Both the position numbers and the translations under genes were made by a program. From Escherichia coli (GTDB taxonomy: Bacteria > Pseudomonadota > Gammaproteobacteria > Enterobacterales > Enterobacteriaceae), in the NCBI RefSeq assembly GCF_024223415.1, contig NZ_CP100500.1: a DNA stretch of 64,000 nt. One strand, 5' to 3'. Below, in pieces: positions 20,048 to 22,986 of the stretch (the first letter of the stretch is position 1; each line of letters starts with the position of its first letter). A model generated the notes under the pieces. It saw nothing but the letters and a program-made list of their open reading frames with translations. It did not search any database and was not told the origin of the DNA.

Positions 20048-21664
20048 ATGCTCAGTCAAATTCAACGCTTTGGCGGCGCGATGTTCACGCCAGTGCTGCT
20101 GTTTCCCTTCGCCGGGATTGTGGTGGGTCTTGCCATCTTGTTGCAAAACCCGATGTTTGTCGGGGAATCACTGACCGATCCGAACAGTTTATTCGCGCAA
20201 ATCGTACACATTATTGAAGAGGGCGGTTGGACGGTATTCCGTAATATGCCGCTGATTTTTGCTGTCGGTTTACCCATTGGCCTTGCTAAGCAAGCGCAGG
20301 GGCGTGCTTGTCTGGCGGTGATGGTGAGTTTCCTGACCTGGAACTATTTCATTAATGCGATGGGAATGACCTGGGGAAGTTACTTCGGCGTCGATTTCAC
20401 TCAGGACGCGGTGGCAGGTAGCGGTCTGACAATGATGGCCGGGATTAAAACCCTCGATACCAGCATTATCGGCGCAATTATCATTTCCGGCATTGTGACG
20501 GCGCTGCATAACCGTCTGTTTGATAAAAAACTGCCGGTGTTTCTCGGCATTTTCCAGGGGACGTCTTATGTGGTGATTATCGCCTTCCTGGTGATGATCC
20601 CCTGTGCCTGGCTGACATTGCTCGGCTGGCCAAAAGTACAAATGGGGATTGAATCTCTGCAAGCGTTCCTGCGTTCGGCGGGTGCGCTTGGGGTGTGGGT
20701 TTACACCTTCCTCGAACGTATTCTGATCCCAACCGGTTTACACCACTTCATCTACGGACCGTTTATCTTTGGTCCGGCAGCTGTTGAAGGCGGCATTCAG
20801 ATGTACTGGGCGCAGCATCTGCAAGAGTTCAGTTTGAGCGCCGAGCCGCTGAAATCATTGTTCCCGGAAGGCGGTTTTGCCCTGCACGGTAACTCAAAAA
20901 TCTTTGGTGCCGTGGGCATTTCTTTAGCGATGTACTTCACTGCCGCACCGGAAAATCGGGTAAAAGTGGCGGGTTTGCTGATTCCCGCAACCTTAACCGC
21001 CATGCCGGTGGGAATTACCGAACCGCTGGAATTTACCTTCCTGTTCATTTCACCGTTGCTGTTTGCGGTACACGCTGTGCTTGCGGCCTCAATGTCGACC
21101 GTAATGTATCTCTTTAGTGTGGTGGGCAACATGGGCGGAGGTCTGATTGACCAGGTTTTACCGCAAAACTGGATCCCGATGTTCAGCAACCACGCGGATA
21201 TGATGCTGACCCAAATCGCCATTGGGTTGTGCTTTACCCTGCTGTACTTCGTGGTTTTCCGCACCCTGATACTGCAGTTCAACATGTGTACGCCGGGACG
21301 TGAAGATGCGGAAGTGAAACTCTACTCAAAAGCCGAATATAAAGCCTCGCGAGGCCAAACCACCGCTGCAGAGCCAAAAAAAGAGTTGGATCAGGCTGCC
21401 GGTATCCTGCAAGCCCTGGGCGGGGTCGGCAATATCTCCAGCATCAACAATTGCGCGACGCGTCTACGTATTGCACTGCATGACATGTCACAAACGCTGG
21501 ATGACGAAGTCTTTAAAAAGCTGGGAGCGCACGGCGTCTTCCGTAGTGGCGATGCCATTCAGGTGATCATTGGTCTGCATGTATCTCAGCTGCGTGAACA
21601 GCTCGATAGCTTAATTAATTCTCATCAATCAGCAGAAAATGTTGCCATTACGGAGGCAGTATAA
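20048..21664 (+). CDS. glvC: PTS alpha-glucoside-family EIICB component, fused and apparently intact (538 aa)
   Basis: EIIC membrane domain plus C-terminal EIIB with the phospho-cysteine motif (NNCATRLR); AGGA RBS 8 nt upstream of the ATG at 20048. Confidence 0.8.
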
Positions 21665-22986
21665 TGACCAAATTCTCAGTGGTTGTCGCAGGCGGTGGAA
21701 GCACCTTTACGCCAGGCATCGTGTTGATGCTCTTGGCGAATCAGGACCGTTTCCCGCTTCGTGCACTGAAATTTTATGATAACGATGGTGCGCGGCAGGA
21801 AGTGATTGCCGAAGCCTGTAAAGTCATCCTTAAAGAAAAAGCGCCGGACATTGCGTTTAGTTACACCACCGATCCTGAAGTAGCGTTCAGCGACGTTGAT
21901 TTTGTTATGGCGCACATCCGCGTCGGCAAATACCCGATGCGCGAACTGGATGAAAAAATCCCGCTGCGCCACGGCGTTGTTGGTCAGGAAACTTGCGGAC
22001 CCGGCGGAATAGCGTACGGCATGCGTTCCATTGGTGGCGTCCTGGAACTGGTGGATTATATGGAAAAATATTCACCAAATGCCTGGATGCTCAACTACTC
22101 CAACCCGGCAGCCATTGTCGCAGAAGCCACGCGTCGTCTGCGCCCGAATGCGAAAATCCTCAACATCTGTGACATGCCAATCGGTATTGAAAGCCGGATG
22201 GCGCAAATTGTTGGGCTGCAAGATCGCAAACAGATGCGCGTGCGCTACTACGGCCTGAACCACTTTGGCTGGTGGACATCAATTGAAGATTTGCAGGGCA
22301 ACGACCTGATGCCCCAGCTGCGGCAATATGTCTCTAAGCATGGTTATGTTCCACCGCAGCAAGATACGCATACTGAAGCGAGCTGGAACGACACCTATGC
22401 AAAAGCGCGGGATGTCCAGGCACTGGCCCCGGATACATTACCAAACACCTATCTGAAATATTATCTCTTCCCGGATTACGTCGTTCAGCATTCCAACCCT
22501 GAACATACCCGCGCGAATGAGGTGATGGAACATCGCGAGAAACAGGTTTTCGATGCTTGCCGCGCCATTACGGCGGCAGGAAATTCAGCGGCGGGCAAGC
22601 TGGAAATTGACGAACATGCGTCATACATCGTCGATCTGGCGGCGGCAATTGCCTTCAACACTCAGGAGCGGATGTTGCTGATTGTGCCTAACAACGGGGC
22701 AATTCATAACTTTGATGATGAAGCGATGGTCGAGATCCCGTGTCTGGTTGGGCACAACGGACCAGAACCACTGGTGGTCGGCGATATCCCGCAGTTTCAG
22801 AAAGGGTTAATGAGTCAGCAAGTGGCGGTGGAAAAACTGGTCGTGGACGCCTGGGAACAGCGTTCATATCAGCACCTGTGGCAGGCGATTACGTTGTCGA
22901 AAACGGTACCGAGCGCCTCGGTCGCCAAAGCTATTCTGGATGAATTGCTGGAGGCCAACAAAGCGTACTGGCCAGAGTTACGTTAA
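21664..22986 (+). CDS. glvG: 6-phospho-alpha/beta-glucosidase, glycoside hydrolase family 4 (440 aa)
   Basis: N-terminal NAD-binding motif ([13 protein letters not shown]) typical of GH4; start overlaps the glvC stop. Confidence 0.8.

What the first reader, a model, noticed from the sequence alone, without database searches (positions are those of the whole stretch)
20048..22986. glv PTS permease and GH4 phosphoglucosidase appear intact, unlike the K-12 pseudogenes
A single 538-aa EIICB ORF (with the CATRLR EIIB motif) and a 440-aa family-4 glycosidase ORF are present with overlapping stop/start. In K-12, as I recall, this locus is split or truncated. The strain may retain a functional alpha-glucoside uptake and hydrolysis pathway.
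Basis: partly seen in the sequence, partly recalled or inferred. Interest (0 to 1): 0.35.

Follow-up and report, generated by a model that had tools for sequence, protein, structure and literature searches.

The report
Unbroken but probably silent alpha-glucoside operon
This E. coli strain has unbroken genes for importing and splitting alpha-linked glucose sugars where K-12 has broken ones, but the same allele is already known from E. coli B, has lost its regulator, carries two suspicious changes in the transporter, and gives no growth signal on the expected sugars.

Summary
Window 20048-21664 is one 538-aa PTS EIICB ORF with the CATRLR cysteine at residue 469. Window 21664-22986 is a 440-aa family-4 6-phospho-alpha-glucosidase ORF, overlapping it by one base (TAATG). 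K-12 differs by a CAG->TAG amber at codon 369 and a frameshifting 508-bp deletion in the glucosidase.

It is not new. The yidP-to-glvA stretch is 100% identical in nucleotides to E. coli B REL606. Yoon et al. 2012 already list glvG as complete and glvB-glvC as fused in REL606. About 1,650 of 5,426 complete E. coli genomes have the full-length glucosidase.

"Intact ORFs" overstates the case for function:
- The divergent GntR/HutC regulator yidP is destroyed by a 79-bp frameshifting deletion, found in 251 genomes.
- The permease differs from the O157:H7 protein at two residues only, L320P (two residues before the GITE motif) and G357S. Both are invariant in 107 of 107 orthologues and conserved in PtsG.
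- REL606 scores 0 on palatinose, turanose and maltitol in published phenotype arrays.

The glucosidase itself looks sound. The most likely reading is a known allele that is open in reading frame but phenotypically silent and partly degraded. Interest is low.

The parts
19115..19752 (-). yidP, a GntR/HutC-family regulator and here a pseudogene. A 79-bp deletion between window 19573 and 19574 shifts the frame after codon 60. The product is 69 aa with the winged-helix domain only and no UTRA effector domain.
   Evidence: Alignment to K-12. PGAP flags it 'frameshifted' in identical genomes. Pfam: K-12 YidP has GntR 3-64 plus UTRA 87-224, while the window product has GntR 3-61 only. The junction 40-mer is found in 251 of 5,426 genomes.
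19753..20047 (.). Divergent yidP-glv intergenic control region. It contains a 34-bp near-palindrome (19869-19902) and a second inverted repeat (19819-19845), both candidate operators, and the ribosome-binding site AGAGGA upstream of ATG 20048.
   Evidence: Sequence and repeat scan. The simple sigma-70 consensus scan found no promoter-like site. Function of the palindromes is inferred, not shown.
20048..21664 (+). Alpha-glucoside-type PTS EIICB permease, 538 aa. It corresponds to K-12 glvC plus glvB fused and is orthologous to Klebsiella aglA. The ORF is uninterrupted.
   Evidence: TIGR02005 PTS-IIBC-alpha scores 953.5 bits (cut-off 607.3) over model positions 1-524 of 524. Pfam PTS_EIIC plus PTS_EIIB. 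PGAP protein WP_000952133.1, identical in strain D2 and REL606.
21005..21007 (+). Codon 320, CCG (Pro). Every orthologue, and PtsG at the aligned position (L293), has Leu. It lies two residues before the GITE motif (codons 322-325, window 21011-21022).
   Evidence: (107 of 107 Leu). The allele is present in 130 of 5,426 genomes.
21116..21118 (+). Codon 357, AGT (Ser). Every orthologue, and PtsG at the aligned position, has Gly.
   Evidence: (107 of 107 Gly). The allele is present in 122 of 5,426 genomes.
21152..21154 (+). Codon 369, CAG (Gln). K-12 has TAG here, which splits glvC from glvB.
   Evidence: The CAG allele is in 3,904 genomes and the TAG allele in 348, largely K-12 or laboratory strains in the sampled rows.
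21452..21454 (+). Codon for Cys469 in NNCATRLR, the phosphorylatable cysteine of the EIIB domain.
   Evidence: Pfam PTS_EIIB covers residues 453-482. Aligned to the EIIB domain of PtsG.
21664..22986 (+). glvA, an aglB-like family-4 NAD+/Mn2+-dependent 6-phospho-alpha-glucosidase of 440 aa. The ORF is uninterrupted and overlaps the EIICB stop by one base, an arrangement typical of translational coupling (not tested).
   Evidence: Ungapped 89.3% identity to PDB 6DUX and 72.8% to 1U8X. Pfam PF02056 plus PF11975. C169, D170, H200 and Y263 are present, and the window matches the consensus at all 223 positions that are at least 97% conserved.
22257..22764 (+). The 508-bp segment of glvA that is deleted in K-12 glvG, bounded by the direct repeat GAACCACT.
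   Evidence: The segment is present in 1,652 of 5,426 genomes.
22983..23876 (-). yidL, an AraC-family regulator convergent with glvA and overlapping it by 4 bp. It is a neighbour; no link to glv has been shown.

Best explanation
This is the E. coli orthologue of the Klebsiella aglA-aglB and Bacillus subtilis glvC-glvA system, carried here as the same allele found in E. coli B.

Design (inferred from characterised homologues). Phosphoryl groups pass from PEP through EI, HPr and IIA-Glc (Crr, encoded elsewhere) to Cys469 of the EIIB domain. The EIIC domain takes up an alpha-glucoside such as methyl-alpha-glucoside, isomaltose, palatinose, turanose or maltitol as its 6-phosphate. The NAD+/Mn2+-dependent GH4 enzyme then splits it into glucose-6-phosphate and the aglycone.

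State in this strain. Both structural ORFs are open, and K-12's amber and 508-bp deletion are absent. The locus is nevertheless most likely silent and partly degraded:
- the divergent HutC-type regulator yidP is destroyed by a 79-bp frameshifting deletion;
- the permease carries L320P (next to the GITE motif) and G357S at otherwise invariant residues;
- the nucleotide-identical locus in E. coli B gives no respiration on known substrates of this system.

Shown here: the ORF integrity, the lesions, their population frequencies and the identity to REL606. Inferred: which lesion, if any, causes the silence.
For: - ORFs and K-12 lesions.
- Family assignment.
- The glucosidase is sound, with all catalytic and metal residues and all conserved positions kept.
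- yidP frameshift and loss of the UTRA domain.
- The EIICB differs from the O157:H7 protein only at L320P and G357S, against 19 synonymous codon differences.
- Both positions are invariant in 107 of 107 orthologues and conserved in PtsG.
- Both alleles are rare (130 and 122 of 5,426 genomes) and include all E. coli B derivatives in the sampled rows.
- Window 19115-22986 is 100% identical to REL606.
- REL606 scores 0 on palatinose, turanose, maltitol and arbutin in phenotype microarrays: PMC3446290 supplementary Table S5.
- Klebsiella aglA plus aglB, or Bacillus glvA plus glvC, make K-12 grow on exactly these sugars using host Crr: PMC5309279.
- No sigma-70 consensus in the intergenic region.
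Against: - No expression or transport data exist for this strain.
- The phenotype-array data come from E. coli B, not from this isolate. They cover only some substrates, with no isomaltose, maltulose, leucrose or trehalulose.
- Plate well PM2 C06 is printed in the supplement as alpha-methyl-D-galactoside. From memory of the Biolog layout that well is alpha-methyl-D-glucoside, so that data point is ambiguous.
- HutC-family regulators are usually repressors, so loss of yidP would be expected to switch the operon on rather than off.
- The effect of L320P and G357S is predicted from conservation only.
- A strain with P320 and S357 but intact yidP exists (AH62), so the lesions are not a simple ordered series.
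Confidence: 0.6

Rival explanations
1. The pathway is fully functional and, because the HutC-type repressor YidP is lost, constitutively expressed. The strain can take up and hydrolyse alpha-glucosides.
For: - Both ORFs are intact, with a good ribosome-binding site and a one-base overlap between the genes.
- The glucosidase has every catalytic residue.
- The EIICB scores far above the TIGR02005 cut-off.
- HutC-family regulators are typically repressors (general knowledge).
- Klebsiella AglA works with E. coli Crr (PMC5309279).
Against: - REL606, with the identical locus, scores 0 on palatinose, turanose and maltitol.
- L320P and G357S fall at invariant residues.
- glv does not appear in the lists of genes highly expressed in REL606 in the text held from that supplement; 'glv' occurs only in Table S1 and its note.
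Confidence: 0.12
2. Both proteins are fully functional and the two permease substitutions are neutral. The operon is merely cryptic or uninduced under the conditions tested, for example because it needs an activator, CRP-cAMP or an inducer absent from the arrays. Mutation or the right substrate could reactivate it, as with the bgl and cel operons.
For: - No sigma-70 consensus in the intergenic region.
- The ORFs show strong purifying selection overall, with 19 synonymous against 2 or 3 non-synonymous codon differences from O157:H7.
- The phenotype arrays lack isomaltose and several sucrose isomers.
Against: - The only two amino-acid differences from O157:H7 both fall on residues invariant in 107 of 107 orthologues and conserved in a paralogue about 26% identical (my estimate from the alignment). 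That would be unlikely for neutral changes.
- The dedicated regulator is destroyed.
Confidence: 0.2
3. The system handles beta-glucosides such as arbutin, as the original K-12 gene names and some automatic annotations ('arbutin-like IIC component', '6-phospho-beta-glucosidase') imply.
For: Source names on some homologues read 'PTS system arbutin-like IIC component'. GH4 also contains 6-phospho-beta-glucosidases (1S6Y and 1UP6).
Against: - The glucosidase is 89% identical to a solved 6-phospho-alpha-glucosidase and 73% identical to B. subtilis GlvA (913.9 and 746.8 bits). The phospho-beta-glucosidases score only about 150-210 bits.
- The permease meets the alpha-glucoside-specific model and scores only 37-47 bits against the beta-glucoside models.
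- REL606 scores 0 on arbutin and about 1 on salicin.
Confidence: 0.03

Closest known systems
E. coli B (REL606 / BL21(DE3)) yidP'-glvCB-glvA locus (ECB_03565 region; proteins WP_000952133.1 and WP_000160104.1)
   Same: Nucleotide-identical across window 19115-22986. It has the same two proteins and the same frameshifted yidP. Yoon et al. 2012 already recorded glvG as complete and glvB-glvC as fused in REL606, against a pseudogene and split genes in MG1655 (PMC3446290, supplementary Table S1).
   Different: Nothing within the locus. The flanks differ at 3 of 9,040 bases, in yidE and yidL.
E. coli K-12 glvC-glvB-glvG
   Same: Same chromosomal position between yidP and yidL, with 98.6-99.5% nucleotide identity.
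   Different: K-12 has an amber at codon 369, the derived substitution P238Q and a 508-bp frameshifting deletion in glvG. It keeps an intact yidP and the consensus L320 and G357.
E. coli O157:H7 yidP-EIICB-glvA (the fully intact E. coli version)
   Same: Same gene order and same lengths (538 and 440 aa).
   Different: O157:H7 has intact yidP and the consensus L320 and G357. Its GlvA differs at three residues: S43, H217 and D255.
Klebsiella pneumoniae AglA (EIICB) and AglB (phospho-alpha-glucosidase). Literature: Thompson 2001 and Pikis 2006, as cited in PMC5309279. PDB 6DUX is from K. pneumoniae by my recollection; the tool gives only the molecule name.
   Same: Same two-gene design, with no EIIA of its own and dependence on Crr. 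The glucosidase is 89.3% identical and ungapped. Enterobacterial EIICB orthologues are about 80-85% identical.
   Different: The Klebsiella system is experimentally functional and confers growth on methyl-alpha-glucoside, isomaltose, maltitol and sucrose isomers. The window allele has L320P and G357S, a dead regulator and no phenotype in E. coli B.
Bacillus subtilis GlvA (MalA, PDB 1U8X) and GlvC (MalP)
   Same: GH4 NAD+/Mn2+ enzyme with 72.8% identity and all catalytic residues conserved. Its EIICB partner also uses a IIA-Glc supplied in trans.
   Different: The regulator type and gene order differ: B. subtilis is glvA-glvR-glvC with an RpiR-type activator (from general knowledge, not tested here).

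Membership tests
Alpha-glucoside-specific PTS EIICB (NCBIfam TIGR02005, Glc family) | Full-length match above the curated cut-off | tested here: met
   953.5 bits against a cut-off of 607.3, covering model positions 1-524 of 524.
Alpha-glucoside-specific PTS EIICB (NCBIfam TIGR02005, Glc family) | EIIC membrane domain followed by an EIIB domain with the phosphorylatable Cys in C-[AI]-T-R-L-R | tested here: met
   PF02378 covers residues 10-346 and PF00367 covers 453-482. CATRLR is present with Cys469.
Alpha-glucoside-specific PTS EIICB (NCBIfam TIGR02005, Glc family) | GITE sugar-binding motif with its invariant surroundings | tested here: inconclusive
   GITE itself is present at 322-325. Leu320, invariant in 107 of 107 orthologues and in PtsG, is Pro here. 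Gly357, equally invariant, is Ser.
Alpha-glucoside-specific PTS EIICB (NCBIfam TIGR02005, Glc family) | An EIIA-Glc partner (Crr) plus EI and HPr supplied in trans | not testable with these tools
   ptsHI-crr lie outside the 64-kb window. Dependence on Crr is known for AglA and GlvC (PMC5309279).
Alpha-glucoside-specific PTS EIICB (NCBIfam TIGR02005, Glc family) | PEP-dependent uptake and phosphorylation of alpha-glucosides | not testable with these tools
   Indirect evidence is negative: REL606, with the identical gene, scores 0 on palatinose, turanose and maltitol.
GH4 6-phospho-alpha-glucosidase (GlvA / AglB / MalH) | Both GH4 domains, full length, no gaps against solved enzymes | tested here: met
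   PF02056 covers residues 6-184 and PF11975 covers 195-415. Ungapped alignments to 6DUX and 1U8X, with 89.3% and 72.8% identity.
GH4 6-phospho-alpha-glucosidase (GlvA / AglB / MalH) | N-terminal NAD+-binding glycine motif, Mn2+ ligands Cys and His, and catalytic Asp and Tyr (B. subtilis C171, H202, D172, Y265; residue roles from my knowledge of Rajan et al. 2004) | tested here: met
   [10 protein letters not shown] at residues 9-18. C169, D170, H200, Y263, N147, R93, E109 and R283 are present. The window matches the consensus at all 223 positions that are at least 97% conserved among 109 homologues.
GH4 6-phospho-alpha-glucosidase (GlvA / AglB / MalH) | Mn2+/NAD+-dependent hydrolysis of 6-phospho-alpha-glucosides | not testable with these tools
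   An enzyme assay is needed.
GntR/HutC-subfamily regulator (YidP) | N-terminal GntR winged helix plus C-terminal UTRA effector-binding domain in one polypeptide | tested here: not met
   K-12 YidP has GntR 3-64 plus UTRA 87-224. The window product stops at 69 aa with GntR 3-61 only, after the 79-bp deletion. PGAP marks it as a frameshifted pseudogene.

The most novel reading that the evidence does not exclude
The two permease substitutions beside the GITE sugar-binding motif (L320P, G357S) retune the transporter rather than kill it. Combined with loss of the YidP repressor, this would give the E. coli B-like lineage constitutive uptake of an alpha-glucoside absent from the phenotype arrays, such as isomaltose, maltulose, leucrose or trehalulose. 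That would be an unrecognised metabolic trait of BL21 and REL606.

A milder version is also open. The locus may be a clean natural example of a gene that is open in reading frame but dead through missense changes, which ORF-based annotation misses.
Probability: 0.07. Interest if true: 0.4.

Novelty: already known. Interest (0 to 1): 0.15.

Why it matters
It matters little beyond bookkeeping. The intact-versus-K-12 difference is a published feature of E. coli B and is annotated in over a thousand RefSeq genomes.

The useful lesson is cautionary. An uninterrupted ORF pair does not make a working pathway. Here the dedicated regulator is gone, the permease has two changes at invariant residues, and the identical locus is phenotypically silent in a well-studied strain.

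Metabolic models and strain engineers working with BL21-type hosts on starch-derived feedstocks containing isomaltose or panose should not assume the native genes work.

Tried and rejected
1. I first estimated carriers of the yidP deletion by counting genomes that hold K-12's 79-bp segment (3,562 of the 4,279 that have the flank). I rejected this because megablast needs a 28-base exact word and misses divergent copies of so short a query. I replaced it with a 40-mer spanning the junction, which can only seed across the deletion (251 genomes). The same centred-41-mer method was used for the amber, P320 and S357 alleles.

2. I considered a simple ordered decay: yidP deletion first, then L320P, then G357S. 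Strain AH62 rules it out. It has P320 and S357 with intact yidP and the K-12-type glvA deletion. Recombination or recurrent deletion at the GAACCACT repeat must be involved.

3. Literature searches on glvG, yidP/glvB, E. coli with palatinose, and the BL21 model and industrial-strain regulatory-network papers gave nothing on native E. coli glv function.

4. A sigma-70 promoter and terminator scan of the intergenic region found nothing.

5. The 625-aa reading from ATG 19787 was rejected as the real start. It overlaps the yidP start, has no homologue support, and TIGR02005 begins at residue 2 of the 538-aa form.

6. Beta-glucoside (arbutin) specificity was rejected.
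Full report
**What is there**

The window is E. coli chromosome starting at the dnaA ATG. At the stated coordinates there are two co-directional ORFs.

- The first ends at 21664. The ORF listing starts it at an upstream in-frame ATG (19787, 625 aa). The biologically supported start is ATG 20048, giving 538 aa. It is preceded by AGAGGA, PGAP uses it in identical genomes, and the family model begins at residue 2.
- This ORF is a Glc-family PTS EIICB. TIGR02005 "alpha-glucoside-specific IIBC" scores 953.5 bits against a cut-off of 607.3, over the full model. Pfam finds PTS_EIIC plus PTS_EIIB. GITE is at residues 322-325 and CATRLR carries Cys469.
- The second ORF, 21664-22986 (440 aa), starts on the last base of the first ORF's TAA stop (TAATG). 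It is a family-4 glycosidase.
- It aligns without a gap to two solved 6-phospho-alpha-glucosidases: 89.3% identity to 6DUX and 72.8% to B. subtilis GlvA (1U8X).

**How K-12 differs**

Aligning MG1655 to the window shows three things.

- glvC and glvB are the same 1,617-bp frame, split by a single CAG->TAG change at codon 369 (window 21152).
- glvG lacks 508 bp, corresponding to window 22257-22764. The deletion lies between two copies of GAACCACT and shifts the frame.
- K-12 also carries a derived P238Q substitution.

**How common each state is**

All counts are among 5,426 complete E. coli genomes.

| Feature | Genomes |
|---|---|
| Hold the 508-bp segment (full-length glvA) | 1,652 |
| Cover at least 80% of the 4-kb locus query | 4,261 |
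| K-12-type glvA deletion (by subtraction; 88%-coverage, three-piece hits) | about 2,600 |
| Lack yidP-glv altogether (match only the yidL end) | about 1,150 |
| CAG at codon 369 | 3,904 |
| TAG at codon 369 | 348 |

Codon 369 alleles were counted with 41-mers centred on the SNP, which megablast can only seed if the central base matches. In the 30 sampled rows the TAG genomes are almost all K-12 or laboratory strains. K-12's split permease is therefore largely a laboratory-lineage feature. The truncated glucosidase is widespread, and the full-length form is found in about 30% of genomes, including O157:H7.

**This allele is the E. coli B allele, and it is already described**

REL606 carries the same two proteins (WP_000952133.1 and WP_000160104.1). 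It is 100% identical in nucleotides to the window from 19115 to 22986. The only three differences in 9,040 bp lie in yidE and yidL.

Yoon et al. 2012 (PMC3446290), supplementary Table S1, list glvG as complete in REL606 and a pseudogene in MG1655. They also note that glvB-glvC are fused in REL606.

**Reasons to doubt function**

1. *The regulator is lost.* yidP is transcribed divergently from the glv genes. It carries a 79-bp deletion between window 19573 and 19574. K-12 YidP has a GntR domain (3-64) and a UTRA domain (87-224). The window product ends at 69 aa with no UTRA domain. PGAP calls it frameshifted. A 40-mer across the junction occurs in 251 genomes, including REL606, BL21(DE3), ATCC 8739 and G3/10.

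2. *The permease has two changes at invariant residues.* It differs from the O157:H7 protein at exactly two residues, L320P and G357S, against 19 synonymous codon differences.
   - Both residues are invariant in 107 of 107 full-length orthologues.
   - Both are conserved in the distant paralogue PtsG. There L293 lies in SFLTGITEP, and Gly is aligned to position 357.
   - Pro320 lies two residues before the GITE motif.
   - The P320 and S357 alleles occur in only 130 and 122 genomes, including all E. coli B derivatives in the sampled rows.

3. *The identical locus shows no phenotype.* In the phenotype arrays of Yoon et al., REL606 scores 0 on maltitol, palatinose, turanose and arbutin. Klebsiella aglA plus aglB, or Bacillus glvA plus glvC, let K-12 grow on these alpha-glucosides using host Crr (PMC5309279).

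4. *No consensus promoter was found.* The simple sigma-70 scan found none in the intergenic region. Two palindromes there, 19869-19902 and 19819-19845, are candidate operators.

**The glucosidase looks sound**

C169, D170, H200, Y263, N147, R93, E109 and R283 are present. These correspond to B. subtilis numbering minus 2, and their roles come from my knowledge of the GlvA structure paper.

The window matches the consensus at all 223 positions that are at least 97% conserved among 109 homologues. The only notable change is D255A, at a site that is Asp in 104 of 109 homologues.

**Most likely explanation and rivals**

The design is that of a standard alpha-glucoside PTS. Phosphoryl groups pass from PEP through EI, HPr and Crr to Cys469. 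EIIC then takes up the sugar as its 6-phosphate. The GH4 enzyme performs NAD+/Mn2+-dependent hydrolysis to glucose-6-phosphate plus the aglycone.

For this haplotype I consider it about 60% likely that the pathway does not operate, through lack of expression, a crippled permease, or both.

- *Functional and constitutive (about 12%).* HutC-type regulators are usually repressors, so losing yidP should derepress the operon. This is the main argument for this rival. The E. coli B phenotype data argue against it.
- *Proteins sound, operon merely cryptic or uninduced (about 20%).* This cannot be separated from the best explanation without experiments.
- *Beta-glucoside (arbutin) specificity.* This is effectively excluded.

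**Caveats**

- The phenotype data are from E. coli B, not from this isolate. They omit isomaltose and several sucrose isomers.
- Well PM2 C06 is printed as alpha-methyl-D-galactoside in the supplement. I recall it being alpha-methyl-D-glucoside in the Biolog layout.
- The lesions are not strictly nested. Strain AH62 has P320 and S357 with intact yidP and a K-12-type glvA deletion. Recombination or recurrent deletion has occurred.

**Verdict**

The feature is already known. Interest is low.

Noticed in passing
The junction is shared by 251 of 5,426 genomes, including REL606, BL21(DE3), ATCC 8739 and G3/10.
   Followed up: yes
window 21005-21007 and 21116-21118: The EIICB substitutions L320P (two residues before GITE) and G357S fall at residues invariant in 107 of 107 orthologues and conserved in PtsG. 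They are the only amino-acid differences from the O157:H7 protein.
   Followed up: yes
window 22426-22428 (GlvA codon 255): GlvA has Ala where 104 of 109 homologues, including O157:H7, 6DUX and 1U8X, have Asp. It is not a known catalytic residue.
   Followed up: partly
window 19869-19902 and 19819-19845: A 34-bp near-perfect palindrome (AGAGGTCTACTTTTTCG|CGAAAACGTAGATCTCT) and a second inverted repeat lie in the yidP-glv intergenic region. They are candidate operator sites. The simple scan found no sigma-70 consensus there.
   Followed up: partly
L004 (E. coli AH62, NZ_CP055259.1 18675-23715): This strain combines the P320 and S357 permease with an intact yidP and the K-12-type 508-bp glvA deletion. 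The lesions at this locus are therefore not nested, which implies recombination or recurrent deletion at the GAACCACT repeat.
   Followed up: partly
window 19500-23016 (query positions 1-3516): About 1,150 of 5,426 E. coli genomes lack the whole yidP-glvCB-glvA segment and match only from inside the yidL 3' end onward. What replaces it was not examined.
   Followed up: no
window 22257-22512 (hit H60, strain 1332KP): In one genome the glvA segment matches only half its length and the annotated feature there is a TnpB-family RNA-guided endonuclease gene. This suggests an IS200/IS605-type insertion inside glvA.
   Followed up: no
window about 47600-50000 and beyond: Downstream of setC the backbone gives way to an island. 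In strain D2, which is 99.66% identical over the first 50 kb, it holds a rhuM fragment, DUF4942, DUF957 and DUF5983 genes and a CbtA-family toxin, resembling a CP4-like prophage remnant.
   Followed up: no
window 19787-20047: The mechanical ORF list extends the permease to 625 aa from an upstream ATG that overlaps the yidP start region. Some database homologues (582-583 aa) appear to carry the same over-extended gene call.
   Followed up: partly
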